The notes under the pieces: model-generated
The model's database searches: none
The model's input: the letters and a program-made list of their open reading frames with translations, nothing else
What the model was told of the DNA's origin: nothing
In this document: positions 8,009 to 59,040 of the stretch, piece by piece
Layout of the letters: every line of letters starts with the position of its first letter
Numbering within the stretch: position 1 is the first letter of the stretch
Made by a program: the position numbers and the translations under genes
NCBI GenBank assembly: GCA_000002445.1
Contig: CM000208.1
Location: 32,001-96,000, forward strand
Direction: 5' to 3'
DNA: 64,000 bases
Source: Trypanosoma brucei
Lineage: Eukaryota

Positions 8009-8067
8009 TTTTTTTTTTGGAATTTTCTTCGTGCCTTCGTGGGAGTTTCCCCCAACTGGCGCGGCCA

Positions 8068-9511: not shown

Positions 9512-10207
9512 CTATCGCTGCATGTTGCGGGTTACACCATCGGCACTGTGAGGGCACACACTCGGGTTGATCTTTCGCAACATCCATCCATAGTGTCTTG
9601 AAGACCCAACCCGAAAGCGTGCCAGTGCCGTTTCTTCTTCCCTCGTCAGTTCTTCCTTATGTTTTGTTGGAAAGTGGTTGCCCGTGATACCAAACCTATG
9701 AGTGTTCTCATGGACTTCTTCCGACCTAAGCACTCGCTTCGCATAAGCAATGATGTCGGGGATCCATGTGTCTCGCAACTGTGGTAAATCTGCGGCCTTT
9801 TTGGCCATTTCATCGCAAACCTCATTCCGTTTCACGCCACAATGGCCGAACACAAATTGCAGTCGGATACGCACCTTCCTTCTCTGAACTTGAAGCAGAA
9901 GCCTCCATAGTCGTCTTAGAATTGGGTCCGTTACGGCTAGGGGGCCTGTCTGCAGTGCTGTTAACATTGACAGCGAGTCAGAGAAGATGGACAACCTGCT
10001 CGGTGTGCTTCTGTATGCCGGAAGCCATTTCAGCAGCCGTTGCAGTCCTATCTCTAATGCTACGCATTCCGCTCTGTAACTGCATGAGAGTTCCCCTGCT
10101 CCAGTTTTGGGTGCACAAATCAGCGTGTTGTTTCTATAGAGCAGGGCAGCTGCTCCGGACTTCTCACCGAGGGACACGGATCCATCAGTCCACAATTCGT
10201 AGTGCAC
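9512..10207 (-). CDS. ingi ORF fragment: RNase H domain.
   Basis: 231-aa ORF with MHYELWTDGSV..YRAECVALEIGL..FVFGHCGVKRNEVCDEMAKKAA, the RNase H catalytic-motif pattern (D..E..D..H). Confidence 0.75.
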   Translation of the reverse strand: MHYELWTDGSVSLGEKSGAAALLYRNNTLICAPKTGAGELSCSYRAECVALEIGLQRLLKWLPAYRSTPSRLSIFSDSLSMLTALQTGPLAVTDPILRRLWRLLLQVQRRKVRIRLQFVFGHCGVKRNEVCDEMAKKAADLPQLRDTWIPDIIAYAKRVLRSEEVHENTHRFGITGNHFPTKHKEELTREEETALARFRVGSSRHYGWMLRKINPSVCPHSADGVTRNMQR

Positions 10208-13399: not shown

Positions 13400-16369
13400 T
13401 TTTTTTCTTCCATACAACACTGTCATCGGACGTGCATGCCGATTCCTAGGACGGCGTTCAGCTTGAATTGTGTAAGAAATGGATTGTAAGGCACTACCGT
13501 GCAAAGGGAACCCAACTAAATTCCATGCCGCATTTTGAAGTATGAGCAGACGGATATGTTTCCTTAGGAATAAAATCAGGGGCTTCCTCAACGACATATA
13601 GGAATGACAATCCCATCTCGACGGTTTGCTGTGGAGCCGGAACAATAGCGTGTAGCTACCAACCTGAGTGCATAGTAATGTTCGAGGTTTTGCATAAAAT
13701 GATAAACATATTAAAACCGAAGGGAGCTCATCCGTGTAAAATGTCTCTTTCTACTGACCGGCGGTCGCTGTTCGAGGCACTGCGAATGGGAGAAACAGCG
13801 GTAAAGGCAGGAATTTTTCGGCGGACTTGGATAGTACTCTTGGGTATCGGATATCATAACACCAGCATCTACCTTCAGCTTGTGTTTGATCATTGTAGTG
13901 TAGAAAAGAATGAATTGACGGACAAAAAAGCGAGGGCATCTGCCAACGTTCCTCAACAAGACGTTGGGTGAATACCCGACATCACTGCCTTGGAAAAGTG
14001 ACACCTCATGGCGAGCAGAGAGAAACTGAAGACACACAGGTTGGAAATGACCGGTGAATGGCAACCAACTAAAGAAGATTTGCCACTAAACCGATAGAGC
14101 AGGTGCAGTCGCCAATTCCGCATTGGGACATCGAATACATATGGATAGTTGCTGCTGAGGATAGACAAAACAGTTCCTGACAAGTGCAGATGGTGTGAAA
14201 CCCATCCCTGCGCACACTGCGGGAAATTAAATTCCGATAGAGCTCACATAGTGTTTCATACGAACCGAATTCACAGTGTACCCTACCATGAGGCATTGCG
14301 CCGGTTGAAACGTGCTGCACACCCTGGTAATGCTGGCCACATCAAGGTGGTGTCAGGGTCCAGTGCCCCGTATCATCGGGGGAAGCCAAGAGCCAGCAGC
14401 GTTCTTCTTATGGGGAACACTGCTTTGCTTCGGCTACAGCGTCATAGAGCACAGGGATCAGCAGCGTCTTTCTGGGACAGCGTCTTTTATTTGTCGGTCC
14501 CTGGGCACGTGGCAAGCGTGCCATCAGCAGTATCACCCGCACATGCTGCAGAACTTGGGGTGTTGCCTGAAATATCACCCTATAACCCCCGCCCCCCACC
14601 GAAGTCGCATGTTCTCATTGTCTGTAACAAATCCTATGGAAACAAAGGAGGGCTCACATTGCACAAAACTCGATGCCTTCACGGCAAAACGAGAAAGTTA
14701 GACGATGAAATGTCGGAGCAACGGAAAGATGATGAAAATATCAAAGAGCACAAATGGGTTTGCGCAGAACGTGGCTTTCAATCCAAGAGTGCAGGTGTAC
14801 TAACATTGCGCAGGCCACAGAAACACCCCATGACCAACGACAGTCCCTTTCCACCCCACACTGGCGGAACCATAATCCACACTGAATATGATAAAAAACA
14901 CACTCCAGTGAGAAATCTGTGGGTTCAAATTGATTTAGCAAAAAGGTTCGACAATACGTCATGGAATAAAGAGCAGAGGTCAGCTTTAGCACATCATTCC
15001 AGTGGTGGAGAAACGGATAGGCACACAAAGTGAAAACCGACCGCATCAACCCAACACCAATGAACAAAGTGATAACACCACCAGTTCAACCCCTGGAGAA
15101 AATGAAGCGATATATGGACCTCGCAGCTATATATTTCACACGTAAATTGGACTAGTGATAAGTCACGGGATGAAATACTGCGAAGTACAACCGCAAACGG
15201 GGTCGCGAGGAATAAAAAGGCAACGGGAACTCGAGGAGAATGCAAGTATTCCAACGAAGGGCTCCCGAGCGACGGAAACGAGAGGGCATCCAGTGAACGA
15301 CCCAGTAGGCACATCTGAGCCGCTACAATGCACGCAATGTGGCCTTGTATCACAATCAAAAGGGGGAACAACACCAAACACCAAGATTCAACACCGCAGA
15401 GGCCATCCCCTGGATAGTAACGCTGGTACAAAACGGAGCCGTTCCATCACAGAACAAGAGGTATCCCTCATTTGGAACACGCTAACTATAGGTGTAAATG
15501 ACGCCTGTTGCACGCAATGCCGTCATACGCATGTATCAAAAGACAGCCTGATGGAGCACTTCGGGGGAATGCATAGACAGCATCCCTTCTCCGTAGCAAA
15601 AGAATCTCCACCACCGCTCCAGAGCTTCAACGTCAGAGGGTTTCATCTACACTTCACGTTCGTGAACCGAAATAAGACGTCCCACTCAACATCAGGTTCA
15701 TCCGTACATCGCCATCAAAAACATGAAATCTGCGTTGAAAGGAAACATACACACTCCAACGAATGCGAAGAGAATCCCACCCACATACTCGTGCGCTCAA
15801 GCCTAAAGTGCTCTGCAGTTACTTCGGGCTTGAGGGCGAAAATATGCAGAAGATAGTGTTCACCAAGAACCTTGCACAATTCCTCCTAGAAATTGAGAAA
15901 CCCCTCATTCTCTTCCAACATGTACTTTCTTCCTCGTGGAGGAACACTCCACTCAAGGAGAGACTAAACACAATGGTGTGCCCAGCATTGGTAAAAACTG
16001 TAAACTCCCCACTACTCCTCCACATTTGGATCGTAAAAATATATGTAGAAGTCTTGAGCCCTCCAGCACGGTGTCAGAGCCACCGCAGGATTGAGAATTA
16101 AAAGTTCAGTAACGCCTACTTGTCCCTTACAATTAGTTCCAACCTAACCTATACAAATCATCAATAACACAAATATAGTTTTATCTAACACAGATAGTAA
16201 TAAATTAATAGCACACTCACAACAGAGCACCATATAAAGGAAAATGTTACATAAAGTTTTTAGCTCCCTTGAGATGCCGTGGCATCACCAGAGGGCTCTC
16301 CAAATAAACCACCGCTATCTTGATAACGGCACTCAGCGTTGCTGGTAGTTACTGCTAAACAAAAAAAAA
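13400..16369 (+). mobile_element. Composite degenerate ingi-related element (DIRE-like) on the plus strand. It comprises an RNase H-like fragment (13678-13971), a C2H2-finger fragment (14149-14320), a diverged RIME-half-A-like segment (14322-14560), further C2H2 fingers (14600-15860), and a degenerate 3-prime tail with (A)9 at 16361-16369.
   Basis: 13678..13971 ORF: YLQLVFDHCSVEKNELTDKKARASA vs ingi RLQFVFGHCGVKRNEVCDEMAKKAA. 14149 ORF: CRWCETHPCAHCGKLNSDRAHIVFHTNRIH. 14322ff: ccctggtaatgctggccacatcaaggtggtgtcagggtccagtgccccgtatcatcggggg resembles the RIME start. CNKSYGNKGGLTLHKTRCLHG matches ingi CASKTGLTLHQKKMHG. Boundaries are approximate. Confidence 0.5.
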
Positions 16370-20748: not shown

Positions 20749-22178
20749 TCAGGCAGCGGGGCCACCAGCAATAGCGTTTGGTTCATCCTGGGTGATCTCC
20801 CTAACAATATCCTTTTCCATCTTCACTTGAAACTGGTTGATTCTATTCCACAACTCTGTAGTATGACCGCCTCTGCCCCCAACTGGTTCGCACCTCCGCC
20901 TCTCCTTGATTGCTCTGCTGTCACTGTACTGTATGTAAACCAGCTCCCATTTCAAGTTTCTTGCGAGCTCATCCCATTCACGAAACAATTGTTTCATTCC
21001 CTTGATAAACTTATCTACCTTCGTTCGTGCCAGGTGATGCGTCGGTGCCACTGTCGTCTGGAGCAGAACAATTGTTGTTGCGGTGATCGCCCTTCCTTCT
21101 GTATCAACAGCTGGCTCAGTCACAAAGAAAAAGGCGTCCACAACGGGGAAATTTCCCTGTACAGGTCGGTGAAGGCACCCGACCTCGATGTCTTGGCCTC
21201 TCGTTTCGGGGTAAATATGACGAAGTGAAGTTGGAACACGTCCCACGGCATTACCACTTGCCAGAACGGATACATGTAAATGCATATTTTCTCCAATGCG
21301 AGGGAAATACCGCAGGTGCGCCACAATCGTCTGCACAACATTTCTCATCGTGAAGGCATATATGCCCACATTTTCAAATTCATCAGCGGCATGCTCTGCT
21401 TTCCCACGAAAAAAATTCCGAAGGTAATTGTCTTGCATACATGCTTTGTCCACCCACACTCTCAATTTCTGCTCAATATAAACGGAAACAGCTCTGTTTC
21501 TGCATTCTTCTCCATTCTCAGTTACAACCCGGACCAACTTAGCTAACATGTATGTAGTCCCGTCATGGAGCTATTGAACTCGGCCATTCAGCACCTCCAT
21601 GCACTGTTCGGTATCGCGAGCAGCGATTTTTCTCAGTGCCCCTTTTACTTCTGTGATTTGGTCACGATAGCGTTTGTCACCTTCCAGTACTTGGCGGGCC
21701 AGTGGGCCCACCTTCTTAGCCCATCCTAATATTTTCTTCCATTCATTCTCAACTTTTATGATGTGAGTTTCGGTGATTTTACTTGCCTCCAACTTTGACA
21801 GCCGCCTCCACGCAACCGCAGCCTTCAGTTCCACCTCTTCATAGCAATTGATGCAAAGGAACTCGTAACCCCGTGGTTCCTTCCACTTTCTGTAGTTATT
21901 TGGATCTGGAGATGTCAAGACAATTACGGGCCACGTTTCCGGAAAGTCTGTTGGTCTTGGTATTTTTCTCTCTTTCGCCAGGTCGCAAATAATGTAACCA
22001 AGAAGCCATTCGTCAGCCAAGGCATTGACAGCATCCACTCCATCATTTTCCTCATAGAATACAACCCTTCCCGGGTGACCATTTGTCGCCCTGAAGAAAA
22101 TATACGCCCCACCCTTCACAAAACAAGCGATAATCCGCAGCAGCTCCGAATCGTAATGCAGCAACCTTTGGAGCAGGA
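20749..22178 (-). pseudogene. RHS: RHS pseudogene copy 2, C-terminal half (downstream of the RIME insertion). An internal stop/frameshift lies near 21550-21571.
   Basis: 21571..22230 ORF ILLQRLLHYDSELLRIIACFVKGGAYIFFRATNGHPGRVVFYEEND.. and 20749..21549 ORF ..FPVVDAFFFVTEPAVDTEGRAI..WELVYIQYSDSRAIKERRRCEP are collinear with RHS copy 1 but sit in two frames. Confidence 0.75.
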
Positions 22179-22674
22179 TTTTTTTTTTCTTCGTGCCTTC
22201 GTGGGAGTTTCCCCCAACTGCCGCGGCCATCAGCCATCACCGTAGAGCCCTGAGATGCTATCGGTCTGGCGACTGTGGCAGAGTCTCCCTTTTTTATTAA
22301 ACCTAACACACTCTCTATAATTTTTGTTGTAGTTCCGCAGTTGAACGGGACACAGCAGATGGGGCGAGAAGCCCCCCTCACCCCGGACTCTCCCAAAGAT
22401 GTCAATTGGCAATCCTTTTTTTGGAGTTCCACATCACCGGACAGCAGCATCTTAGTGCGGATGATACTGCTGATGGCACGCTGTCACGTGCCCAGGGACC
22501 GACAAATGAAAGACGGTGTCCCAGCAAGACGCTGCTGATCCCTGTGCTGTATGATGCCGTAGCCGGAGCACAGCAGTGTTCCCCATGAAAGGAATGCTGC
22601 TGGCTCTTGGCTTCCCCCGATGATACGGGGCACTGGACCCTGGCACCATGTTGAGGTGGCCGGCATCGCCAGGG
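22179..22674 (-). mobile_element. RIME: RIME (ribosomal mobile element; ingi half-A + half-B, ~496 bp incl. (A)10), inserted in RHS copy 2 with a perfect 12-bp target-site duplication tttggagcagga.
   Basis: Reverse complement of CCCTGGCGATGCCGGCCACCTCAACATGGTGCCAGGG..MLLSGDVELQKKDCQLTSL..GATGGCTGATGGCCGCGGCAGTTGGGGGAAACTCCCACGAAGGCACGAAG(A)10. The 12-mer tttggagcagga occurs at 22167-22178 and at 22675-22686. Confidence 0.85.
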
Positions 22675-23735
22675 TTTGGAGCAGGAACGAGCCAACACCA
22701 ACTGATTTCCCAATACCTGCAGTGCCGACGAGGACGCAAGGAATCTGTTTTTCGATCAGCCCTCACTCCAGCCACAAATCCAGCCTCTGCTTCACAAGAT
22801 ACCACACTCTCATTACCTCTCGACGAATGTGCACATCTCGGTCAAACACATGGACCTTTGGATTTTCCTCACCCTCTTGAATTACTCTTCGCGGAATGCG
22901 GAACCGGTTATATGGCCAACCCTTGTGCGAGGTGAGCACCGCAATCTCTAAATTACCACGTCGAGGAAGAGGTTCATTCATAGTTCCCGGGCCGTGGCTG
23001 ACATCCACCACTCTTTCCGTCCACAGCTCAGGTTCTCGACCACAATTTCTCACCACCTTCATCATAACCCGACATCACATAACTCCACGTCGCATTGTAT
23101 ATGGATTCATACACTCCTTTAAGTTCGGCACCACCAGCTGTTAGGGCAGCTCGTATCATTGCTTTTTTGACGGCCATCAATGCTGCATCCAGTTTTCTCC
23201 TCACTACGGGACCAACAAATTCCCTTATCTGAGTGGTTGCATTCTCTTCCCATTGTTGTATGTCTTCAATTCCATTACGAGGCAGATAAATAACCGCCCT
23301 CAGTAATTGAAACTCATCGATATCCTGTATTTCTCCAAGAATCCCTGTATCAACAATATAATCCTCCCGGATTCTTAACAAACACATTCAGGGCCACATT
23401 CTCTGTGTTGTACGTGTTCGAAAACTTTTGCATCAAAAATTCATGCAGTTTCATATCCTTCAAACCCGCATAGCGTTCCAGTAACACATCTTCCACGCTA
23501 CTTTCCAACACCCATTTGCGACAATTGGTTTCCTTCCCCGTAAAGTACAGTGGGACTGCAACGGAAGATATTCCGATGAGTACTCCAGAGAGGCAGAGTT
23601 ACGGTGAGAGGAGAAAAGAAATATGGTCTTGTACCATACCGTCTCAGGGATCCACAAAGTGGAAGTGCAAAACAGCGTTTGGAAAACATCATCAACAGAA
23701 TTGATAGCCTTAGACTTAAAAATAAATAAAAACAA
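22675..23735 (-). pseudogene. RHS: RHS pseudogene copy 2, N-terminal half including the P-loop (GTAGIGKS) just upstream of the insertion hot spot. It is spread over three frames.
   Basis: Translation of the minus strand next to the RIME gives ..LIEKQIPCVLVGTAGIGKSVGVGSFLLQT. Upstream ORFs 22763..23065, 23028..23387 and 23460..23735 are collinear but out of frame with each other. Confidence 0.6.
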
Positions 23736-26700
23736 GAGTTGTATAAGGTATAATAATAATATGATACTGCGTCGTCAAGTATCATTCGAAGAGATGCATG
23801 CACATGACTAGCCTTTGAAAGTCAACAACACAGTTTATCCACAGTGCTAATAGATTTCACTCACTGCACCAAGCAAAGATACAAACAGTTGAATCAAAGT
23901 AACAAGAACACATTATATATCATATCAATATAGGATTAAATGTGTAAGGGCATCCAACCACATACGCGATACGTAAATGTGATAGCAACCACTACACATA
24001 CCGTAACTAAACTGCTGCGCAAGAATATACTTTATTCTTAATGAATATCCAGTCTCATATGACAGTTACTCGACATACATGTAGACAATTTCTTTTAAAT
24101 AGAATCCACATATGATAAATGGATACAATCCCCTTGAACAGTGTTGGAGATGTATTAATGGTAACATGACTCAAAGGGAACGCAGTACAATAACGGTCCG
24201 CGTACTTTCCATAGGATTCACATATCATACCCAGTGTAATTATAATGAGATACAAATCACATACACCGACACACATATATTGAAGAACTTTAGTGGAAGA
24301 GTAACTCAATCACAAGTCACGATTAATCAAAACAGTAAACACAACATAAAATGCAGTAAAGAATGTGTGAGTAAAGGAAAATATACAAATTATCGGACAG
24401 CAACACACATATATATGAAATATGAGTAGAACAATTCATGTAAATATACAGCAAGATCAACAACAGCATAATCTACGGCATTACAACAATTGTTGTATTT
24501 TCATTGTCGGCTGAATGAAGTAACTAACTGCAGAAAAAAAACCCACATACACCTATGTTGCTGTGAGGAGCAGCTGTGATAAAGGTCTGGTGAGAACTGT
24601 TGCTCGATCACTTCTGCGCCCCACATGTGCAGGGTAATGTTGCTGCGGCTTTCTACTATTATTAATGCATTTGTTCTTACCTTCATACGTATCAGCAAGC
24701 TCTGGAATTTTAAAAGAACTGCGGGACATAAATGGTTTGTGGTTTCTCTTTGTCCAAAATTTTAATGATAGAAAATGAAAAATACTGTGAGTGATGTTAA
24801 ATACAAACAAAATTGCGTTACTCTCCTTGTTAATATCAACGGTACACAAGGACATACCCTGTTACTCTCATGACGATCCATGAAGTAAGAAAAGTGTCTT
24901 TCATTATAACAAAGCGGAAAGAAAACTGAAAAAGAGAGATAAGTTCCCAAATATTTCCCACATGTTCGCCTTTCTTCCTATAGAAGAGCAACTAACTGAA
25001 GCAACACATGAATTTCTAAAATAGAAGTATATACCTTTTTTCCAGTTGCAGCGTGAGTTTGCAGCACACACACTCACTCACCACCACCGACATGTTTTTA
25101 CGCGCTCTCTACGCTCACATTACACAACCAACTGAAAGCATTAATATTCAAAAAAGGAAGCCTATCACTATTGTATGAATTTTACGCCCTCTGATGATGC
25201 TGATGATAAGGATTAACCGAGGCAGATGTATTCCCAAGTCCCTTCCTCCACTCCGTTATTTAAGAAATTCCGATATTCTAAAATAACAAAACACAACAAA
25301 AAGGTGCAACAGTACCAACGTACGCACACCAGTCGAACACTCTCCTTTAGAAGACCATATGCACGCTCCCTCATACTTTCATTCTCTTGGAAAGTCATGT
25401 CCCATCTAGAAAAGCAAAAATAAAGAGAATCATTACTGATTAGATTAATCATGCAAGTAGTAATATCCGTCCAAATTCATTCATCAATGAAAGACAATAT
25501 CTGAAGTACAGCAGTGTAAGTGGATCGTGCAAACAAAAACAATTACCCATATTTTGCTCCGTCATTGAATCTTTGTGATAGAGAACGCCGATGGTAGAAT
25601 AAAGGAGACACTATTAATGTGATGGGGTTATGCATGCGCCACTCCGACTGTTCACAAATAAATGCAAATATCACAGTCTCAATATTTTCCAAATATACCC
25701 AACAAATAGGAAGCAAGTATTTTCTAGAATATGTGAAATACACGTCACCGCATCCACAATATAATAAGCGAAGATGAGACTCCATTTTCAAAAGCAAACA
25801 TACAATCATGACAATACCGAGCACCATTTCCCTCGTGTATCCAAAAGACTCTGATACATAAGAGAGCAATTCATAAAAGATGTTTAGAATAATATGGGGA
25901 AGTAGGAAATAATGATCGGTGCTTCTGGTACTCAGCCTAACAGAAATGAATATGATTGACGCAAATTATGTATTTTCTTTTTTTTTTAAGATGGAAAAGA
26001 TAAACTGAAATGGGAGCAAACATGCAGGATGGTAATTTTCCAACGGGTTGAAGCACAAGCTCTCTTTGTATCAACAGTTTGTGCTCAACATTTTTTACTC
26101 AGTGCACTTTTTTTTTTTTACGTGCATGCTTTAGTGAGACTTCATTCAATCATCCAGCTGAAACGCGGAACACTCCCAAGCCAATCATCCAACACTTCTC
26201 TGATGTGTTTTTTCTCCATTTCCTCTTGCCTAATTGCTAGAACTCAGCTTTCCGTGACTTCTGTTGGAAATACCACCTCATTCCTACTGTTTGAAACCGC
26301 AGTCACGTCACCAGAAAAAGAAATCTTTAGTTTTATTTCCAAGTCCCGCTATGACGTTTTCAGCTTAGGAAGGCGACTACCTCTTCTCCATCTGAATTCG
26401 CGTATTCTGTGCGGTAAGAATCTTGCACTTTGGCACCTAGTTATAAAAAAAAATCCATTTTTTAATCGGATGCTCGGTCAGTACATTCGGTTTCTAACAT
26501 AACAGATCCACTGCCACAGCCCCATGTATCTCTCACTCCACACTTTGGACCCTCGACGTTATGCAGCGCCGAAAGCGCTCGGGTCACTCCATCATCACAC
26601 AATCCCCCTGAAGAAGAGGACATCACAGGCGTTTCGTTTCCTCATTGACGGCATGACGGGTCTCGAGACCACATCGACGTGACCTGTGGAGTCAGAACTC

Positions 26701-28643
26701 AAAGAGGGTACGTTGAACTAATTCACCTTTTTTTTTTCTGTTATGGGCGGCTGTCTTTACAGAACTCTTATCGATCGACTTTACAATGCACTAGAAGAGA
26801 AAGTGTGTGCGGAATCACGTGTTTTGCTACTATGACGGTGGGTCAACCCTCAACAACAAATGCTTTTCGGGCCATGAAGTTCCATTGGCATGCAAATGCC
26901 TGCAGAGGTCTTGTTTGCCCTGTGGAAGCTTCGTGACCAAATAAATGTCACAGACTCCAGAGCCCACAAATGCGCACGTATTGCACCTGCTTATGCTACA
27001 CCACTTTTTCCATTTGACCCCATTACGAACTTCTTTCGTCCGCAAGCAAAAGTCTCATCCGTAAATGAAACCAAGCAACCGACGTAGCTACGCACCACAT
27101 CGTGGTGTGGTGTTGTCCTTTAACGCCTCCAGGAGCGGAAAGATGCCCCACCGCAGTTTTGCTCATGCACAAATACCCTTAGGCGACGATGCGGAGGGGA
27201 TCCCGGTTCTATTTCCACCATGAACTCGCACGGGACAGGTTGGTACTCCTGCATCTGTTGTTGTTAGCAGAGAGGATAACCTCCAGTCCGTTATGCCGGA
27301 CAAAGTTCGTCACCACTCTCCAGCCAAACGGTCCCCGCTCCGGCTTACTCAAAGATGACGATACAATGAGGAAAACCAACGGTGGTGGCGTGCCAGACTC
27401 TGGTGCGTGTCAACCTCCCGGTAGAAACCGGAGAAGAAGAGGGAGGAGAAGTGGCGGCGTGAAAGCCTCACTGCCAATACGTCAGAGGAAGCTAAACCGA
27501 CATTAGCGATGGTGTATTTTTCTAGAAGGGCGAAACCACTCTAAAGTGCGGGTTGCCTGCCATTGGTGTTGGAGCATCAAAACCGTTCTTCCTCTCACAT
27601 GGATCCTTTCTTGAGCATGGCAAGCCGAAGTCGTCGAGTGACCGCCTATGCGGCATCCGTCAACGACGCGCACATATATTTCGGCGAATCTCCCACATCC
27701 CTGTAATGGGACAGTTCGCACATATTTCTGCCTATTCCGCAGCAAATCCATGACCGAAGAAAGCATGATGGCTTTGATTGCGGCGAAACGTGTGGCTACG
27801 GTTGCGCGGTTGTAGTACACCAGCATGTTTACGGCAATGATGAAGTTGGATCAACGACTGTTGGACGTGATGATCTTGTGCCTACAGAAGATTGTGGCGA
27901 TAAGCGAGATCAAACACGCAAGTCCCTTGACAAAAGGTCGGAATGGCTCAGATTATTACTTTTCGTCCGGATTGGAAGGAGTGTGTGGTTTTTGCGTTTG
28001 GTGTGGATTACGACAAGTCGTCGGGTGGAGATCCCGGCACCGATACGGAAGCATTTCCAATGGAACAGGGACAGTGTAGCGCTCCTCGATTGGTTGGTGA
28101 CACCCAAGACAGCCAAGTCCAATTCACACCGAGCAGGTCGTTAAGTTCGCATTCGGGGATTAGGACGCTCTCGATATTACGCGACTACTCTCCACTATGA
28201 AGCTCAAGGAACGTATAACAACGCTCACAACAACCAAAGTCGAACGTATTCGGGCTTCATGGGAGATGATGACGCACCCCGTTAGAAGAAGGAGTTTTAC
28301 AGCATGCTACAGCCACAATTTGTGGAAGAGCACAGCATGGATCCTCACATTATTCCCCAACCGATTGAGCACATTTATCTGTTCCACTTGCCGAGGAACA
28401 CTGTCAGCCGCTTGGACAAATACACCGCCATGTTGACTAATATGTAGAATATCGTCTCTATGATGTAACCCATGTCTTAGATGAAGGATAAGAGCCATGG
28501 GAGCCGCCAGGGCGGTGTCCCTTCAAGACGCACGGTTACACGATAACAAGGAGGGCGCACGCCACACGCCTGTTGAATACTCAGGACAAGGCTTCCATTC
28601 CTTTACAGCAAGTGCACGTCCCACTGCTGGAGATATATTGAAT

Positions 28644-29142
28644 CCCTGGCGATGCCGGCCACCTCAACGTGGTGCCAGGGTCCAGTGCCCCGTATCATCG
28701 GGGAAAGCAAGAGCCAGCAGCATTCCTTTCATGGGGAACACTGCTGTGCTCCGGCTACGGCATCATACAGCAGAGGGATCAGCAGCGTCTTGCTGGGACA
28801 CCGTCTTTCATTTGTCGGTCCCTGGGCACGTGCCAGCGTGCCATCAGCAGTATCATCCGCACTAAGATGCTGCTGTCCGGTGATGTGGAACTCCAAAAAA
28901 GGATTGCCAATTGACATTTTTGGGAGAGTCCGGGGTGGGGGGCTTCTTGCCCCATCTGCTGTATTCCGTTCAACTGCGGAGCTACAACAAAAATTATAGA
29001 GAGTGTGTTAGGTTTAATAAAAAAGGGAGACTCTGCCACAGTCGCCAGACCGATAGCATCTCAGGGCTCTACGGTGATGGCTGATGGCCGCGGCAGTTGG
29101 GGGAAACTCCCACGAAGGCACGAAGAAAATTCCAAAAAAAAA
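28644..29142 (+). mobile_element. RIME: Intact RIME (~499 bp incl. (A)10 tail at 29134-29143) flanked by an 11-bp TSD atatattgaat (28633-28643 and 29143-29153), in a non-RHS context.
   Basis: Begins CCCTGGCGATGCCGGCCACCTCAACGTGGTGCCAGGGTCCAGTGCCCCGTATCATCGGGG. The half-A/half-B junction is ..ATGCTGCTGTCCGGTGATGTGGAACTCCAAAAAAGGATTGCCAATTGACATTTTTGGGAG. Ends ..GGGAAACTCCCACGAAGGCACGAAGAAAATTCC(A)10. The flanking direct repeat is identical on both sides. Confidence 0.9.
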
Positions 29143-30362
29143 ATATATTGAATCATTTCTCGCTTAAATTCGAGTGTGGAATGTAGATTTCAGCATCTCT
29201 GGGGACTGATCGGACTGAGACCAAAAGGGACCAGTGAAAGGAGCCCTCAGGTTATTTCCATCGGCGATGATCGTCTACTTTGGAAGGTCGGTATCGTAAA
29301 GGATGCCTCCTCCGTACCAACAGGAGCTCGGGTCATCCCTCTTCTCAATTGCAGAGGATAAACTCTCCAACGAGCGTCGCTGGTGAATTGCGGGGCCTCA
29401 AGAGAAATAACAAAAGCGGATAAGCCTTACGAGGCAATTGTTCCTTTTGGAACACATTTCAAAATACCTTCATGCGGTTACTATCCTGAGTTGTCGACTT
29501 TTTCTGTCTGTTTTTTTTTGTTTTTTCTTAGAGGCGTTACGTCGTCGTCTTTTGCCTCGTACAGAGAACTTGTCCCCGCCACAGAGGCCGCTTTGTTACC
29601 ACTGTCCGCACTTGGTTTAGTAAGTGGGTATTGCTTTTTTGCCTGTTTAAAAATAAGAAACGCACGGTTACATCCGATTGGGAACCCGCAGTTGATTTGG
29701 TCACAGATGGCTCTTTGAGGGGTTGTGGGTCTGGGGCATGTCCTCTTATTGGATTCCGGTGAGGTGAAAGTAATGTTATGTGCTCTCGTTGGTTTAACTT
29801 CCCTTTTCTTATCATGCAGGCTCAGGCCCGTGTCCTCCGACTCTTCTCAGTAGCATTCGTGGAATCCTTTCCCCCTGAGTATTGACATTTGGGTTGATAA
29901 TACATTCCTGTAAGGCGCGGAAACAAAAGGAAACACAAAAGCCTACGGTCTTTCCGTGGCCATGGATGAGATGTTTATGATATTTGATTCCCACAACATT
30001 AGCACAAATTACTCGTTTAACCGCTCCGTCACCAAACCGGCGGTCGGCTCCCGCGGAGGCACACGGTTTAACTGTGCAAAGTTGGTGAAAGAGTTTAACT
30101 TACAAAAGGAAGTGGCGGTGTCCCGAGGCTTTTGGGGACCACATGAACTGCCCTTTCACAAGTCTACAGTGAAATAAATATTCCGCTGCTGCTTCTCACC
30201 CAAGTATTCTCTAAGTGTGCATGGATGGTTATAGATTTTGTTTATAATTCCTTGACTCTCTCTCTCTCTCTTTAATCTTCTTCCATAGATTAAGGAATTG
30301 GACCGTCCCTAAGTTTATATTCTACTTTGTGTAGCCTGCCCTTGACTTCCTTTCCGTCTCTT

Positions 30363-30380
30363 GGGGGGGGGGGGGGGGGG
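30363..30380 (+). repeat. G18 homopolymer, preceded by a (CT)n microsatellite at 30256-30272.
   Basis: ttgggggggggggggggggggaag read directly; ctctctctctctctctc ~90 bp upstream. Confidence 0.9.
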
Positions 30381-32799
30381 AAGTTTATATTGTGTGTGGC
30401 TCCAACGTGTAAAAGTAAAAGTCAGATACCCTGAAAATATTTCTCCTCGGCCCCCCCAGCAGCAAACAGACATCTCCGAGCTGCAGGGGTCTGACGTTAG
30501 CGGTGTTCTTACTTTTTGTTACGTGTCTCGAAAGCTCTTTGTGCGGATGCACAGTTGCCTCCAACGCTTTTCCGTTCCCATCCCCTAATAAGCGTTTGCT
30601 ACCCGCCTTAGGGGTTAGAGGTTCCTTAAGCAGGAGCCCTCCAAACAAAAAATATATTTAGTTTTCTTCGCGTCCAGTTGCATAAAGTTTTTTCGGCCTT
30701 ACGCTGCTATAGTACCTAGTTCTCTGTGCAAAATTTTTTCGAGTTGCAGTCTTTGCGTGCCTGTGCACGTCATCGTTCCGTAATCTGTGAGGCCACAGGG
30801 TTGGGGGCTGGGGTTTGTGTCGTACTGACTGCTAAGAAGGGGTTTCACGACAGTTGTAAATAAAAAGGATCCGACTACTTTGCCTCGTGTCGCTTTGCTT
30901 GGTAAGGGTTCCGGCTTCAATAACGCTTTCTTTAGTCGAAATGTTTACAGCATCCAGTGAGGAAGGGAAACTCTCCGGCGTCTGAGTTATATTTATCTAC
31001 TAAACTTCCACACTTCACTCACATTCCTCTCATGACCCACACTTTCAAGTTTTTTTTTTGGTGTAAAAGGCAAATGAAGAAACGGTTCGAGCAACATTAC
31101 CACCGCGGGGCAGTGCTGTGCGGATATGCTGCAACTCATAGGGCGCCAAAGCGCTCGGGCGAAGCGACATTGACCGCTCATTGGCCGGCGCTTTTCTGTG
31201 TTTGTGACTTTTGTTCCCTCGATCCGTTGCTTTGTCATCGATATTGTGCCAGTAAACTCTAGTGAGTGAAGCGAGACGATGTCGGTGGTACGTCCACTAA
31301 CTTTTAGAAATGTTGCAATGGTTATCCGACTTTTTCACCTAACTACTGCTGTTGTGTGTCGTGGACTTTGGTTCAAATTTCAGCGTGCCCTTTAGCCAAC
31401 ATATCGATGATTTAGTTCTCAGAAGTAAGCATCACTCTCCCGCCACCGTTTCGCGTGATGATTCTCCTATCAACTTTTGTCATTTCAGTGTTTGTATATC
31501 GTTTGAGAGAGTGTGTGGGGTTTGTGATGCTGTGAATGTTCATCCTTGCGGCTGTCATAGTATTCATGGAACAATTCACATACATATCCTCAGAATTCCA
31601 CGGCCTCTGTTTCCTTTTCTTGTGGCGGGTTCCTCTTCCGTTATTAGGGAAGGAATCTATAATAATGGTGCTGTGAATAATTCTTTCAATAAGGTACGAA
31701 GTTTTTCTTTGTCTCATCTATTAGCAGTTTTGAGGTGTATCTTCCAGCATGTCCTCACAGCTGTTATATTCAGCACCCTCCTTTATGTGATGAATGAGGA
31801 ACAACATTTTCTTCCTATGAATTGTTTTTTGGTACTGTCTAATCCACTACAGATGCAATGGCGTCATTGGTGTTTTCAACTGCCATCAACACGTGTTTTT
31901 ACCTATTTGCCGAGTTCGGGCACACAATGTTTTGGTAAATTTGGACAATCCACAATTTTGTTCGTGTCCCTTGATACTGCTACATTGAGTAATATCCAAC
32001 TGCAATAACCGCTAAAGTTTCGCATCGCTTTCCAAGATGTAACATCGCTGTGCGTAAAACAGGTAACTTCTATTGAAAGCAGTGCGCCTCCGAATGCTGT
32101 ATATCAAATTGGAGCTTCATTGTTGGTAACTGTTAAACTCTTCTCCAGCTATCAATTCAATGTCAGCTTCATCACCCTTCCCCTCTGGAATACGTGGGGC
32201 TGAGGAACGTAGCACCGCTTCACGTCAGCTCCGGTGGCTACTGAATCTTGATCCCCGCTTCTAATTCCTACAACCTTTACACGTTTACATTAGAGTTATT
32301 GGGAAAGCAGGCAAATGCCACACCAAGCTGTCCATCGTTTTCAGGCGCCAGCGTAACGGTTATGATTTCCAAAACCACAATTATTTTTTGGAGCGTTAGT
32401 TACTCATATCCCGTTTCCAATGAGTATTGATACGTTTTTGTTCTTCATTTTACAGCAAGAGAACGCTGTGTATTGGTAATGGAAGCAAGCGTTCATTCTG
32501 CCTTCCCCAACATTCGTCAGTGTCTCCAAAAGAAGGCGAAAGATCGCCACGTAGTTTTTTGTTGTTTCCGATATATGTGGCCCCTTTCCGCCGGCGAGAT
32601 CTTACGTACTCCACTGAGACCTGTGGAAAATATGGGGTGGACACCTGCTGACACCGGCCCCGGGGAGGCGGGGGATTCAGTTAACGCACGGGGCGGGTCA
32701 GCATCAGTGCCTCTGAAGGGTACACACGGAAGGAGAATGTGTACTTATGTGATGCGGTGGCCGCTCATTCTAACCGTCGTATGTTAAGGTTCAATATTG

Positions 32800-35700
32800 A
32801 GCCGCTGCCACGATGCGGGTGATAGCCCATAGCTTTCTTTTGGGTGGTGCACCGGGTCCCGGAATCGCTCTCTCGTGGCTCGCGTGGTCGCAATGCAGCT
32901 CGGATTTTGTGAGTGAACATCTTTTCCGCCTCTGTGGGACTTTGGTGGAGGTTGGTGGCGGAAGTTTTGGTGCTGCTGGTTTTGCCGTACACCCGGTTTG
33001 GTGTAGTCTTCCCCCTTTGCTGCGGTTTTTAGCCGTTTGGTCTGAAAGTGCATGGTCTTTTTACAAAGTGATTTGCTGGGTTGGGCACTGATGCGTTGCC
33101 TATTGTGGTCTCGCGTGCCTTAGGAAATGTTTTCGCTGGTGCTTTTGCTGTTGTATCACCCTGCTTTCAAGTCATTTGTTACATGTGTCGGGGTATGTTT
33201 GGTGCGTTACAAATGGTAGTGGTTAGTGTACGGCTATTGGCTGTTAGGCATATTGAAGGGTGTAGCATTAACATTTCGTAATGACTTTTTTCCCGTGTCG
33301 TGAGGGAAGTTGGTGGGAGTTGCAGTACTTTGCAGTGGCTACATAGGCTACCCGATTTTTTTTATTTAGTAAGTCTTGTAGTGCACACCTCCACCGCTAG
33401 ATCTTTGATGACAACAGATGCGCCTTCCCTTTTGAGTTGTGGGGACCACCCAGTGTTGTGGCAGGTGGGGGTGAAAGCGTGGAACTAATTGAATTTCGGG
33501 GTGAGGATTTGGTCTCACGGAAGAAATGGGAGGTTGACGACACCCTAACAACGATGTCGCTAACATCTGCTTCTCCTGGGTGAAGGGGTCCGGCGGGCTT
33601 CCACCTTGGGTTTTGGACGTCGCCACCGTACTGCACTTCGCTGCGAGAAATTTAACTAACATTAGGCTTATACCCCACCAGAGGCCCACAAGAGGTAATT
33701 CGTCACATGTCGCAAAGCTAATACACCTACCATCATAATCTGAGGCCGTAACCGTTGTATTTCCGTTCCGGCACTGCCAAAACAGGTTGCAATATCTTGG
33801 GTTCTTACATAAGAAGTCAACCGGTGATGACATTAGTTCGTTAGGTTGGTGAGCGATGCCGTGAGCCACTATGCATTTACATTAGCACAACTTCCGTTTA
33901 ATTGGTGGTGCCATTTTCGCATATCGAAACTCGAGCGCTGATACTTCCCGCGTGGCATTGCGTGGTTGGCGGCAGTAAGTTCTTGTTTTTCTTTTGCATG
34001 TTTACCTGGGCCCGAGCGATCTCTTTTTCTGTTAGATGTTTCGAAACCTTGGTTCATTTTACTTGTGCAAACGTAAATAGGTAGCATATTCGTTCCTTTC
34101 GTCTTTTAGAAATAGTTACTTTAGGGACACTCGAGTCGCTTTGCTGTGATTGCCAGCTGCGGCTGATTTTTTAAAATTATTCTTCCAACAGTGTTTGTAA
34201 TAGCATTGCTATTGTTTAGCTTTGGCGAGGGATATATTAAATATTTTTTGTGGGACATTATTTTTGTTGTGTGCTGCTGGTGGCGCATACTGAAGAGCCG
34301 TGGGCAAATCAAGTGCTTCTCGAGACATCCATATCCCACTGCTTTTGTGACTGCTTTTCTTCTTTATCTTTTTTGGATGTCTATGTTTTTTTACTTTAGT
34401 CTACAGGTGTATTTTTAAGTGATGGTGTAGATACTACCTATTTCGTACTGTGAGTCTCTGCTACTTTGTGCCGGGAATAGTTGTACAGTTTCTCACTTCC
34501 TTTTTACTTTTTTTTTGCAGCGGTTTTGAATAATTGTTTTGACACTGGTTGCTATGACATATTGTTCACGATGCATCCTTAAAAGTTTTGCGAGGTTAAG
34601 AAAATAAATTTATTGGCCGGATGTTTATATGTTTTCGGCAATATAATTTGTACTATTATTTTTGGTGCCTTTCTTCCCTTGTTTTGTTAACACTTTTACA
34701 TATATATATTTTTCATACTTAGATTGCGGTACGAGGTGCTCTTCGTACCATTACTTTTTTTCGCCCTTGTTTCCGGACCGAAAGGCACCTCTGCTAGTAG
34801 AATGATCGAACTTTTTATGTTATGCTTGTTATCTAAGTTACCTGCTTCAGGTGGGTTACTGTCCCTCTCGTGCCATTGTTGGATGATTGCAGATTGTTTT
34901 GAAGTATTTTTTTTGTTTATCGTTACTCACTTTTTTGTTGGATGTTTTGAAACTAGTTGTTATCCCGTTACGTTGTACACACTTTCCCTCCTCCCTGGTC
35001 GTGTACTGTCACTTTCTCTCTAAACATGGTTTTTGTGTATATGGCACTGGCTCCTTTGGACTGGGTCTTTTCATTACCCCTTATAAAAGAAAAATATACT
35101 TTATATATCTAATGTTTTTGTTTTGTGTTGCTCATTTTTTTTTTCTGGTGAACGTTTCACCGAATGTTGTTTTTGTACAACCGGCTACTGTGCATTGTTT
35201 GCGCCGTTAGTCGTTTTTAAGCTGTGAAGGGGAAGATGCTCACGTAATAGCAAAAATGAACTCGATGTTTTCCTCCCATATTTGAGCTCCGTACTTCACG
35301 AGCAGGGCACCAGATTGCGTGTGTGTACACTTTCTGCCATGTATTGCGCACACATTTGGTATGCGAACTTCAAGCTGTTGGGAGTGACTGCATTTGGCTT
35401 CTTTCCCCCTTTGTACTGTGTTATAAAAAAAAAAAATAAAATATCGTTTGCTACAACGGTGCCCCAACAATGTGGTTTGAGGTATGGGAATGGCATTTTA
35501 GGACCCTGCCTGTATTATTGTGTTTTCTTAAAACACATTTTCGTACGCGTTGGTGTTTGGTAGTTGCACATGTACCGCTTACTTCTTTTAAGTTTAATTC
35601 TCATTCCATGTTGTTCATACATTTGTCCCGGTGCAAGCGAGTGACAACAACAGTTGAGTACTTAAGTACCCCATTTCCGTCATGTATGGAAACCAAGGTC
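32800..35700 (+). promoter_or_regulatory. Extended GT-rich (G+T skewed) tract on the plus strand immediately upstream of the first gene of the plus-strand array. Candidate RNA pol II transcription start region / GT-rich promoter.
   Basis: Visible strand asymmetry, e.g. ggtggcggaagttttggtgctgctggttttgccg.., gtgcttttgctgttgt.., gtttgtaatagcattgctattgtttagctttggcgagg.., with very few A/C runs on this strand for ~3 kb. It ends where coding starts at 35786. Confidence 0.3.
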
Positions 35701-35785
35701 TTGTGCTATGTTCTATTTAGTAACAAGCCATCATGTTTTACAACGCGATTATATATATTACTATATTTTCTCTTTTAGTCACCGA

Positions 35786-36310
35786 ATGAGCACTAGTGAA
35801 CGGCGTCGCTATGGGTTTCAGCGTACCTCCAAAGAGATAAGAAATGAAAGGAAGCTTAACAAGATGCAAAAATGGAGTGAAAAGCTAGACAGCTGTGATG
35901 TCGTTAAATTGCGCACGGAGCTACGTTCCATGGAGAAAGCCGACTTCCTGCTCCCTCGTCAGAAAGAACGAAAGACACTGATAGAAAGAATGATACGAGA
36001 TGCTGAGCTAAGGAAGTGTGTTGAGGGTACCGCTCCCATTTCATGTGAACAGCGACCCAATGAAGATACCCAAGACAATTCGAGCTGCTCCAGTAGATGT
36101 GACGATATTATCCTTAGTCCCCGTCTGGGTGTAGGGGATGGTGTTGTGGTTACGACGCCAGATCACTTCATTCCGAGATCATTGAGAAAAAGGTGTGGTG
36201 GGAACAACAGTCAGGAGGGTCTAAAGAAACGGGTGAAGAGGGCAGAAGAGCACTTGATTGCTAACAATTCGTTGGAGGAAGATATTGATGATTTTTTTGA
36301 TTCTCTCTAG
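35786..36310 (+). CDS. Hypothetical protein (174 aa, charged/basic), first gene of the plus-strand array.
   Basis: ATG at 35786 within the 35708 ORF, preceded by a pyrimidine tract (ctatattttctcttttag). No recognisable domain. Confidence 0.45.
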   Translation: MSTSERRRYGFQRTSKEIRNERKLNKMQKWSEKLDSCDVVKLRTELRSMEKADFLLPRQKERKTLIERMIRDAELRKCVEGTAPISCEQRPNEDTQDNSSCSSRCDDIILSPRLGVGDGVVVTTPDHFIPRSLRKRCGGNNSQEGLKKRVKRAEEHLIANNSLEEDIDDFFDSL

Positions 36311-36494
36311 TTGGTGTGAATCTAACTTTGCTCCGCTCTTGCTTGCCTGGGTCTCTGTGGACTGCTGCCAACCGAGTTCACAGAGCTCCGTCATCGTTAT
36401 TTTGTCGTATGCCAGAATTCGACTTTCTCTGGATGGTATATTGCGGTCACCCTATTATACTACTGGGAAAAGGGGGATTACACTATACCTATTT

Positions 36495-58373: not shown

Positions 58374-58375
<2 letters not shown>

Positions 58376-58409
<34 letters not shown>
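58376..58409. repeat. (TA)n microsatellite. Other (TA)n/(AT)n runs at 5922-5946, 42321-42338, 49409-49431 and 58847-58869; (TG)n at 57262-57276; (CA)n at 1569-1583.
   Basis: Direct reading of dinucleotide runs. Confidence 0.9.
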
Positions 58410-58411
<2 letters not shown>

Positions 58412-59040
58412 TGACGGATTGTGTGGGTGCGTAGAGCCCCTCTGAGCCCCCTCTTCTTTTACTTTTGTACTGAACTATTGATTTCATTTTGCCTTCGTGG
58501 GCCCTCCCTTTTCAATCACATGTGGTGTAAAAAAAAAAATAATTACCGAAACTCAGGCACGCATGGCACTCGCTTCCCTTCCCCTTGACTTACACACTGC
58601 GCTGCGTGGCAACAAGCGACCTCGACTCTGAAGGGACGACTGGAGGAAAGTGGAAAAAAGAAAGGAGGTTTTTCTCGTTGTCTCACTCAGTTCGTTCTCC
58701 TCACTTTTTTTTTTGTTTCTGTGCTGCTGCCACAGTCACAACGGCAACCGATACAATATGCTTTTAAATTCCTCCTTTTTTGTTTATTTTGTTCTTATTG
58801 CCGTTGTATTCATCACACCTCACCGGGTGTGGTTCGTATATATATATATATATATATATGTCTACGTGTTTCTGCATTGCTCTGTATATATTTATATATA
58901 CGTATGTGCAGATGTTGCTCCTGTTCTTTACTGTGTTCTGTTTCTCCTTCACTGCGTTGGCGCTTTCCTTCAAATTTCTTTATATAATTTACTTTTTTTT
59001 TGTCGGCACATCCTCCTTTCGATCAGTTTGGGCTTATGGG

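What the first reader, a model, noticed from the sequence alone, without database searches (positions are those of the whole stretch)
23736..35785. ~12-kb gene-poor divergent strand-switch region with a compositional flip at ~26 kb: candidate pol II transcription start zone at a subtelomere/core boundary
To the left, all recognisable units (RHS, surface-protein pseudogenes) are on the minus strand. To the right, 20+ housekeeping genes are all on the plus strand. Between them the plus strand is A/C-rich up to ~25.9 kb and abruptly becomes T(G)-rich from ~26.0 kb (ctttttttttttttaag at 25970, cactttttttttttttacg at 26105). This is the compositional signature of sense-strand switching in trypanosomatid intergenic DNA. 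In T. brucei, divergent strand-switch regions are where pol II polycistronic transcription initiates, marked by H2A.Z/H4K10ac. A fresh RIME (28644-29142) sits inside the zone.
Basis: partly seen in the sequence, partly recalled or inferred. Interest (0 to 1): 0.55.

Follow-up and report, generated by a model that had tools for sequence, protein, structure and literature searches.

The report
Known trypanosome transcription start region

Summary
The window is T. brucei TREU927 chromosome 10, Tb927_10_v4 32001-96000. Published ORF, splice-site and poly(A) coordinates match at an exact offset of 32000. Kolev et al. 2010 (Table S14) list the first chromosome 10 Pol II unit as starting at Tb10.100.0045 (window 35708-36310), plus strand, type "Divergent". 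Their Table S7 places three plus-strand transcripts inside the "gene-poor" zone (33370-34256, 34395-35021, 35211-35663). Plus-strand transcription therefore starts left of 33370.

The flip at 26 kb is only partly right. GT-AC skew falls until about 25.85 kb, is flat from 26.0 to 29.5 kb, and rises from about 29.5 kb. The best single breakpoint is 29.5 kb. The flat zone is an unskewed 50% GC block plus the RIME.

The rising arm carries the published coding-strand signature of start regions. It has a G18 run (30363-30380), the only G or C run of 10 or more in 64 kb, and the most GT-rich 750 bp of the window (32.55-32.9 kb).

The RIME (28644-29143, plus strand, 10-12 bp target-site duplication) is confirmed.

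A productive leftward unit is not shown.

Verdict: interpretation supported, already known, low interest.

The parts
20749..23387 (-). RHS pseudogene, the nearest recognisable minus-strand unit. It is interrupted by a RIME at 22179-22674 (minus strand) with the 12-bp target-site duplication TCCTGCTCCAAA.
   Evidence: Pfam RHSP/RHS_N hits. RIME alignment and duplication.
23388..25969 (-). A/C-rich arm on the plus strand, so GT-rich on the minus strand. GC 0.37, AT skew +0.16, GT-AC -0.13. It is the upstream flank of the RHS pseudogene. It has no C run of 10 or more and only 4 start-region 10-mers on the minus strand.
25970..26600 (+). Short T/C-rich stretch with T10 (25978-87) and T12 (26108-19).
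26601..28643 (.). Compositionally neutral block of 50% GC. It has no Pfam hit in six frames and only weak codon log-odds. It may be a long-decayed gene or element.
   Evidence: One weak tblastn hit, 28328-28441 against 4069-4341(-).
28644..29143 (+). RIME of 500 bp in sense orientation. It has the Pr77 5' hallmark (CCCTGGCG...CCACCTCAACGTGG), an A10 tail, and the target-site duplication TATATTGAAT at 28634-43 and 29144-53.
29158..35785 (+). Plus-sense GT-rich zone and the inferred extent of the Pol II start region (6.6 kb). GT-AC +0.136, AT skew -0.22. It has 25 polypyrimidine tracts on the plus strand against 7 on the minus strand, and 49 published start-region 10-mers on plus against 7 on minus in 29-36 kb.
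30363..30380 (+). G18 run. It is the only G or C run of 10 or more, and the only canonical G-quadruplex motif on the plus strand, in the 64 kb. About 3e-7 such runs are expected by chance.
   Evidence: G10 is the top coding-strand 10-mer of the 5' fifth of start regions in Wedel 2017 Dataset EV1.
32551..33369 (+). GT-rich block holding the most GT-rich 750-bp windows of the whole window (GT-AC about +0.26 to +0.28). It lies directly upstream of the first mapped 5' end of a plus-strand transcript.
33370..34256 (+). Published novel transcript Tb10.NT.1 (chr10 65370-66256, 1.49 RNAs per cell). Its 5' end follows a polypyrimidine tract and an AG at 33368-9.
34395..35021 (+). Published novel transcript Tb10.NT.2 (chr10 66395-67021, 0.27 RNAs per cell). 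The listed 5' end does not follow an AG. The nearest AG is at 34398-9.
35211..35663 (+). Published novel transcript Tb10.NT.3 (chr10 67211-67663, 0.43 RNAs per cell). Its 5' end follows the AG at 35209-10.
35593..36415 (+). Transcript of the first annotated gene, Tb10.100.0045 (probably Tb927.10.150). [quoted passage not shown] A splice site was reported inside the annotated ORF, so the likely start codon is the ATG at 35786. Polypyrimidine plus AG at 35777-8 is my prediction of that site.

Best explanation
The interval holds the RNA polymerase II transcription start region (TSR) of the first core polycistronic unit of T. brucei chromosome 10. That unit runs from Tb10.100.0045 to Tb10.70.7140 on the plus strand.

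Initiation on the plus strand is dispersed, as is usual for trypanosome start regions. It takes place somewhere between about 29.2 and 33.4 kb. This is downstream of a sense-oriented RIME and a G18 run, and within or upstream of the most GT-rich block of the window.

The primary transcript is then cut by trans-splicing and polyadenylation. This yields three short unannotated RNAs (33370-35663), followed by the first mRNA (SL sites at 35593 and, predicted, 35779; ATG at 35786).

The stretch from 23.4 to 26.0 kb is the upstream flank of a minus-strand RHS pseudogene. The stretch from 26.0 to 29.2 kb is a neutral spacer made of a decayed GC-rich block and the RIME.

What is shown: the identity of the locus, the published start of the unit, the published transcripts and splice sites, and the sequence signatures. 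What is inferred: the position and 6.6-kb extent of the start region, and its H2A.Z/H4K10ac chromatin.
For: Locus identity:
- Tb10.100.0045 is annotated at 67708-68310, which is window 35708-36310.
- The PUF stop at 88258 is window 56258, and the Tb10.100.0200 stop at 91436 is window 59436.
- The CBF5 and ATPase gamma poly(A) sites (71330, 72507) equal the window stop codons plus the published 3'UTR lengths of 99 and 110 nt.
- Three of four published 5' ends fall exactly after polypyrimidine plus AG.
- Gene content (KPAP2-like, CBF5, ATPase gamma and others) matches.

Published function:
- Kolev 2010 Table S14 lists this unit as a putative Pol II transcription unit of type Divergent.
- The paper states that 5'-triphosphate reads were enriched at all such sites.
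- Table S7 gives three plus-strand novel transcripts at 33370-35663.

Sequence signature:
- In Wedel 2017 Dataset EV1, GGGGGGGGGG occurs 132 times on the coding strand against 17 on the non-coding strand in the 5' fifth of 199 start regions. GT/T-rich 10-mers are also enriched.
- Here the only G run of 10 or more is G18 on the plus strand at 30363.
- Start-region 10-mers peak on the plus strand at 29-31 kb (25 hits), and total 49 against 7 over 29-36 kb.
- The top GT-rich windows are at 32.55-32.9 and 33.9-34.25 kb.
- The best skew breakpoint is 29.5 kb.
- Start regions are described as 5-10 kb wide, which fits 29.2-35.8 kb.
Against: - No ChIP-seq, nascent-RNA or 5'-triphosphate read data could be inspected at this locus.
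- Table S14 names only the first and last ORF of the unit and gives no start-site coordinate.
- The placement of initiation at 29.2-33.4 kb rests on sequence signatures and on the first mapped transcript 5' end.
- The A-to-T flip at about 25.97 kb is real. Weak plus-sense initiation as far left as 26 kb is not excluded.
- Kolev's data come from procyclic forms only.
- One published 5' end (34395) does not follow an AG.
Confidence: 0.85

Rival explanations
1. This is a classical bidirectional start region. Two productive units start back to back, with the centre of divergence at about 26 kb. Leftward Pol II transcription covers the RHS, VSG-pseudogene and ingi array.
For: - Table S14 labels the unit 'Divergent'.
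- Kolev et al. report antisense 5'-triphosphate reads at all putative start sites.
- 23.4-26.0 kb has a minus-sense skew of the same size as the plus arm (-0.133 against +0.136).
- RHS pseudogene transcripts are detected elsewhere in the genome (Table S6 row for Tb927.2.1140).
Against: - No minus-strand partner unit is listed for the left end of chromosome 10, unlike most other divergent pairs.
- The left arm has no C run of 10 or more and only 4 start-region 10-mers.
- Polypyrimidine tracts there show no strand bias, 4 against 5.
- The best breakpoint is 29.5 kb, not 26 kb.
Confidence: 0.35
2. The sense-oriented RIME supplies the promoter. Its Pr77 internal Pol II promoter at 28644-28720 drives, or adds to, initiation of the plus-strand unit.
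For: - The RIME is in sense orientation, 1.2 kb upstream of the G18 run.
- It has an intact Pr77 with the CCACC...CGTG element.
- Pr77 promoter activity, and the idea that it acts at strand-switch regions, are published.
- Seven RIME-derived 10-mers appear among the coding-strand 10-mers of the 5' fifth of start regions, at 6-7 against 0-1.
Against: - The RIME is a recent insertion, with an intact target-site duplication and 97% identity to another copy. The housekeeping unit must have had a promoter before it arrived.
- The GT-rich and G-run signatures lie downstream of it and are independent of it.
- The promoter assays I read were done with T. cruzi L1Tc.
Confidence: 0.1
3. The compositional pattern is only a mosaic of unrelated blocks: an RHS flank, a decayed insert, a RIME and long upstream sequences. 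It has no promoter role, and plus-strand transcription enters from further left.
For: - The interval is visibly a patchwork of blocks with different GC content (0.37, 0.50, 0.54, 0.44).
- Plus-strand retroelement relics exist at 13.5-15.9 kb.
Against: - The published classification marks this as the start of a Pol II unit.
- The intervening 16-23.4 kb carries minus-strand genes.
- The G18 run and the GT block match the start-region signature.
Confidence: 0.05

Closest known systems
T. brucei RNA polymerase II transcription start regions (dTSR/sTSR), marked by H2A.Z, H2B.V, H4K10ac and BDF3 (Siegel 2009; Kolev 2010; Wedel 2017; Staneva 2022)
   Same: It lies upstream of the first gene of a polycistronic unit, at a change of gene orientation. 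It is several kb wide, has no focused promoter motif, and contains short unannotated transcripts. It is listed as a unit start in Kolev 2010 Table S14.
   Different: Nothing differs in kind. It sits at the edge of a subtelomere-like RHS/VSG/ingi array, and no partner unit is listed on the other side. It may therefore behave as a unidirectional start region despite the 'Divergent' label.
GT-rich dispersed promoters of African trypanosomes (Wedel et al. 2017, EMBO J)
   Same: It has a coding-strand G run and GT/T-rich 10-mers concentrated at the 5' end, and the highest GT skew of the window just upstream of the first transcript.
   Different: Promoter activity of these particular sequences has not been assayed. 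The G18 run lies 3 kb upstream of the first mapped transcript 5' end.
RIME / ingi non-LTR retroposons with the Pr77 hallmark
   Same: The element is 500 bp with a Pr77 5' end, an A tail and a 10-12 bp target-site duplication. Accumulation of such elements at strand-switch and start regions is already reported.
   Different: Here it is a passenger inside the start zone. No role in initiation has been shown.
Leishmania major chromosome 1 strand-switch region and the kinetoplastid strand-specific G/C and T/A skew (McDonagh 2000, as cited by Wedel 2017; details of the Leishmania case are from my own knowledge)
   Same: The skew polarity follows the coding strand and changes sign between divergent clusters.
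   Different: The sign change here is interrupted by a neutral zone of about 3.5 kb and is much wider than the sub-kb Leishmania chromosome 1 region.

Membership tests
T. brucei Pol II transcription start region (TSR) | Lies immediately upstream of the first gene of a polycistronic unit, with all downstream genes on one strand. | tested here: met
   About 20 plus-strand genes follow from 35786 onward. The nearest left-hand gene is on the minus strand.
T. brucei Pol II transcription start region (TSR) | Experimental mapping of initiation (5'-triphosphate RNA) assigns a unit start here. | tested here: met
   Kolev 2010 Table S14 lists Tb10.100.0045 to Tb10.70.7140, plus strand, Divergent. The coordinate offset of 32000 is verified by ORFs, splice sites and poly(A) sites. 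I checked the published table only, not the raw reads.
T. brucei Pol II transcription start region (TSR) | Enrichment of H2A.Z, H2B.V, H4K10ac and BDF3 over 5-10 kb. | not testable with these tools
   No ChIP-seq tracks are available. Kolev et al. state that their sites coincide with the histone-marked sites in general. The predicted extent of 29.2-35.8 kb is inference.
T. brucei Pol II transcription start region (TSR) | Coding-strand G runs and GT/T-rich 10-mers concentrated in the 5' part. | tested here: met
   G18 on the plus strand at 30363-80. There are 49 plus-strand against 7 minus-strand Dataset EV1 10-mers in 29-36 kb. The top GT-skew windows are at 32.55-32.9 kb.
Divergent (bidirectional) strand-switch region | A second productive unit starts on the opposite strand in the same region. 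| tested here: inconclusive
   Gene orientation is divergent and 23.4-26.0 kb has a minus-sense skew. However, no minus-strand unit is listed for this end of chromosome 10, and the left arm lacks the G-run signature.
RIME (ingi-derived SINE) | About 500 bp, Pr77 5' hallmark, 3' A tail, target-site duplication of about 12 bp. | tested here: met
   28644-29143. It is 97% identical to the copy at 22179-22674. Pr77 is present, the tail is A10, and the duplication TATATTGAAT has ambiguous A and C at its ends.
Protein-coding gene or structured RNA gene inside the interval | An ORF with family homology or coding-like codon usage, or a match to a known RNA family or tRNA. | tested here: not met
   Pfam six-frame scan of 26.4-30.2 kb and of ORF 31352-32008 found nothing. 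The maximum codon log-odds is 0.16, against 0.33-0.40 for the top windows of real genes. Rfam gave 0 hits and tRNA search gave 0.

The most novel reading that the evidence does not exclude
Sense-oriented RIMEs may be recurrent functional parts of the 5' edge of T. brucei start regions. At this locus the RIME, through its Pr77 element, together with the adjacent G18 run, would set the upstream boundary of the first core unit against the silent subtelomere-like array. The lead is that seven RIME-derived 10-mers sit in the published list of coding-strand-specific 10-mers of the 5' fifth of start regions. The source paper's text, as far as I read it, stresses the G and T stretches.
Probability: 0.1. 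Interest if true: 0.4.

Novelty: already known. Interest (0 to 1): 0.12.

Why it matters
It matters little beyond confirmation. The case shows that sequence composition alone can find a trypanosome Pol II start region: a GT-AC skew change, a coding-strand G run and a GT-rich block. It also shows that the point of the first A/T flip can be several kb away from the true start of the sense zone.

The locus is a tidy example of a start region that abuts a subtelomere-like array and has a recent retroposon inside it. It could serve as a test case for promoter directionality and boundary function. The existence and role of the region are already in the literature.

Tried and rejected
- Exact-protein look-ups of ATP synthase gamma, CBF5 and two ORFs from the interval found nothing on record.
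- A homology search with the first gene returned only one unnamed 99% identical cluster. These protein collections evidently lack annotated trypanosome data, so I did not use them further.
I repeated it with stops masked, and it found nothing.
- tblastn of all ORFs from the left part against the interval gave only RIME matches and one marginal 30-bit hit, 28328-28441 against 4069-4341(-). I judged this hit unreliable after allowing for about 150 queries.
- Siegel 2009 (PMC2682952) is not held, so the original histone-variant maps could not be consulted.
- I considered a protein-coding gene, a tRNA, snoRNA or other Rfam RNA, and a decayed ingi, RHS or VSG copy as the content of 26-29 kb. None is supported.
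- I considered a replication-origin reading of the G-C minimum at 27350. It could not be tested, and skew in kinetoplastids follows the coding strand.
Full report
**What the window is**

The left third of the window carries, on the minus strand:
- RHS genes (Pfam RHSP at 6669-8078 and 20749-22230, RHS_N at 23028-23387);
- a full ingi retroposon (endonuclease, RT and RNase H at 8.0-13.3 kb);
- a VSG_B pseudogene (16.5-18.0 kb).

From 35.7 kb onward every sizeable ORF is on the plus strand. These ORFs encode housekeeping proteins: a PAP/NTase, CBF5/dyskerin, ATP synthase gamma, S6e, V-ATPase proteolipid, GAA1, two proteasome alpha subunits, PEX14, MCU, a PUF protein and a 5'-3' exonuclease. This identifies Trypanosoma brucei.

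Published coordinates then fix the locus exactly. In Kolev et al. 2010 (PMC2936537):
- Tb10.100.0045 is annotated at Tb927_10_v4 67708-68310, and the window ORF is 35708-36310.
- The PUF gene ends at 88258 (window 56258).
- Tb10.100.0200 ends at 91436 (window 59436).
- The poly(A) sites of CBF5 (71330) and ATPase gamma (72507) equal the window stop codons plus the published 3'UTR lengths of 99 and 110 nt.

The window is therefore chromosome 10, 32001-96000. Independent papers give Tb927.10.160 as KPAP2 and Tb927.10.180 as the ATPase gamma subunit.

**Checking the observation**

The gene-poor interval is real.
- Between 23.4 and 35.7 kb no ORF exceeds 218 aa.
- A stop-masked six-frame Pfam scan of 26.4-30.2 kb, and a scan of the longest ORF, found nothing.
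- A codon log-odds scan trained on the window's own genes peaks at 0.16 in the interval. The best windows of real genes reach 0.33-0.40.
- Rfam and tRNA searches of the whole window are empty.

The RIME is confirmed at 28644-29143 on the plus strand. It is 97% identical to the copy inserted in the RHS pseudogene at 22179-22674. It has the Pr77 5' end and an A10 tail, and is flanked by TATATTGAAT on both sides. The quoted T runs exist as T10 at 25978 and T12 at 26108.

The compositional flip is real but is not one abrupt step at 26 kb.
- Cumulative GT-AC skew falls to about 26.0 kb, stays flat to about 29.2 kb, then rises. The global minimum is at 28722 and the G-C minimum at 27350.
- A three-segment fit gives breakpoints at 25850 and 29500, with means of -0.10, -0.02 and +0.12.
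- The best single breakpoint is 29500, with a gain of 239 against 203 at 26000.
- The 0.6 kb just right of 26.0 kb is T/C-rich, not T/G-rich. The next 2.5 kb is unskewed and GC 0.50-0.54.

The statement that all units on the left are on the minus strand is slightly too strong. Diverged ingi-like relics lie on the plus strand at 13.5-15.9 kb.

**What it is**

[quoted passage not shown] They report enrichment at every divergent unit and summarise the units in Table S14. The first chromosome 10 entry in that table is Tb10.100.0045 to Tb10.70.7140, plus strand, type Divergent. This is the unit that starts at the right edge of the finding.

Their Table S7 also lists three novel plus-strand transcripts inside the interval:
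- Tb10.NT.1, 65370-66256, window 33370-34256;
- Tb10.NT.2, 66395-67021, window 34395-35021;
- Tb10.NT.3, 67211-67663, window 35211-35663.

The paper says transcripts lacking a spliced leader or a poly(A) tail were left out of its novel-transcript count. In the window, the 5' ends at 33370, 35211 and 35593 each follow a pyrimidine tract and an AG. The end at 34395 does not. The site at 35593 is the 5'-most SL site of the first gene.

Plus-strand transcription must therefore begin left of 33370. The gene is in Kolev's list of ORFs with a splice site inside the annotated ORF. The strong polypyrimidine tract plus AG at 35777-8 is my prediction of that internal site.

**Where initiation most likely happens**

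Wedel et al. 2017 (PMC5579346) found that 10-mers specific to the coding strand cluster in the 5' fifth of the 199 start regions. They are mostly G or T stretches, and synthetic GT-rich elements drive directional transcription and H2A.Z deposition. In their Dataset EV1, GGGGGGGGGG occurs 132 times on the coding strand against 17 on the non-coding strand in that 5' fifth.

In this window:
- The only G or C run of 10 or more is a G18 on the plus strand at 30363-30380. About 3e-7 such runs are expected by chance. It is also the only canonical G-quadruplex motif on the plus strand.
- Scanning with the full 10-mer list gives a plus-strand peak at 29-31 kb, and 49 plus-strand against 7 minus-strand hits over 29-36 kb. 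After removing the G run and the RIME hits the count is 33 against 7 (binomial p = 4e-5).
- The most GT-rich 750-bp windows of the entire 64 kb lie at 32.55-32.9 kb, directly upstream of the first transcript 5' end, and at 33.9-34.25 kb.
- Polypyrimidine tracts are 25 on plus against 7 on minus over 29.2-35.8 kb.

Start regions are described as 5-10 kb wide. The stretch 29.2-35.8 kb is 6.6 kb. My inference is that the start region spans roughly this stretch and that dispersed initiation occurs between the RIME/G18 edge and 33.4 kb.

**The left arm and the middle**

The stretch 23.4-26.0 kb has a minus-sense skew as strong as the plus arm. It lacks a C run, has only four start-region 10-mers on the minus strand, and shows no strand bias in polypyrimidine tracts. 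Table S14 lists no minus-strand unit for this end of chromosome 10, unlike most divergent pairs on other chromosomes. Leftward productive initiation is therefore possible but not shown.

The block 26.6-28.6 kb has coding-like GC content but no detectable homology. One 30-bit tblastn hit to a fragment at 4.1-4.3 kb is marginal. I regard the block as a long-decayed insert of unknown origin.

**The RIME**

Its intact target-site duplication and high identity to another copy show that it is recent. It therefore cannot be the original promoter of a housekeeping unit.

Retroelement accumulation at strand-switch and start regions, and the idea that the Pr77 internal promoter could add to polycistronic initiation, are already published. 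One small new observation came up. Seven 10-mers in Wedel's list (TGGGCACGTG, TAGCATCTCA, GGTGATGGCT, GTGATGGCTG, GGCTGATGGC, CGAAGAAAAT, GAAGAAAATT) are RIME sequence. Each is counted 6-7 times on the coding strand and 0-1 times on the non-coding strand in the 5' fifth of start regions. This implies that sense-oriented RIMEs recur at the upstream edge of a handful of start regions, probably including this one.

**Comparison, novelty and verdict**

- Its position, the published initiation mapping and the sequence signature were checked and met.
- The chromatin marks could not be tested here.
- True bidirectionality is inconclusive.

Its observation is partly confirmed, because the sense switch is a 3.5-kb neutral zone with the main breakpoint at 29.5 kb, and because the gene-poor zone contains three published transcripts. 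The finding is already known. Interest is low (0.12).

The most novel reading left open is a functional boundary or promoter role for the sense RIME plus the G run, with probability about 0.1.

Noticed in passing
window 13531-15856 (+): Diverged ingi-like relics lie on the plus strand. There is an RNase H-like stretch at 13531-14175 (37% identical to the ingi ORF at 9515-10207 on the minus strand). There is also an ingi/RIME 5'-end-like segment at 14300-14550 (88% nucleotide identity), with plus-strand ORFs at 14149-15856. These lie head-to-head with the full ingi at 8.0-13.3 kb.
   Followed up: partly
window 28823-29131 (RIME) and Wedel 2017 Dataset EV1: Seven 10-mers in the published list of coding-strand-specific 10-mers of the 5' fifth of start regions are RIME sequence, counted 6-7 against 0-1. 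This implies that sense-oriented RIMEs recur at the upstream edge of several start regions.
   Followed up: partly
window 22167-22686 (-): A RIME (22179-22674) is inserted in the RHS pseudogene with a perfect 12-bp target-site duplication, TCCTGCTCCAAA. This is the classic retrotransposon hot-spot arrangement. A second RHS (6669-8078) is interrupted by the full ingi.
   Followed up: yes
window 26601-28643: An unskewed block of 50% GC with no ORF over 107 aa, no Pfam hit and weak codon signal. It may be a long-decayed gene. One marginal 30-bit protein-level hit links 28328-28441(+) to 4069-4341(-).
   Followed up: partly
window 35708-35786: The annotated start codon of Tb10.100.0045 (ATG at 35708) is listed by Kolev 2010 as misannotated, because a splice site maps inside the ORF. 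A strong polypyrimidine tract plus AG at 35777-8 sits 7 nt before the ATG at 35786.
   Followed up: partly
window 56300-58750: This stretch is dense in A, T, C and G homopolymer runs and has an AT skew of +0.3 at 56-57 kb. It corresponds to the very long published PUF transcript 3' region (chr10 transcript 86561-90911).
   Followed up: no
window 34395: The published 5'-most end of Tb10.NT.2 does not follow an AG dinucleotide. The nearest AG is at 34398-9. It may be a minor non-canonical site or a read-alignment ambiguity.
   Followed up: no
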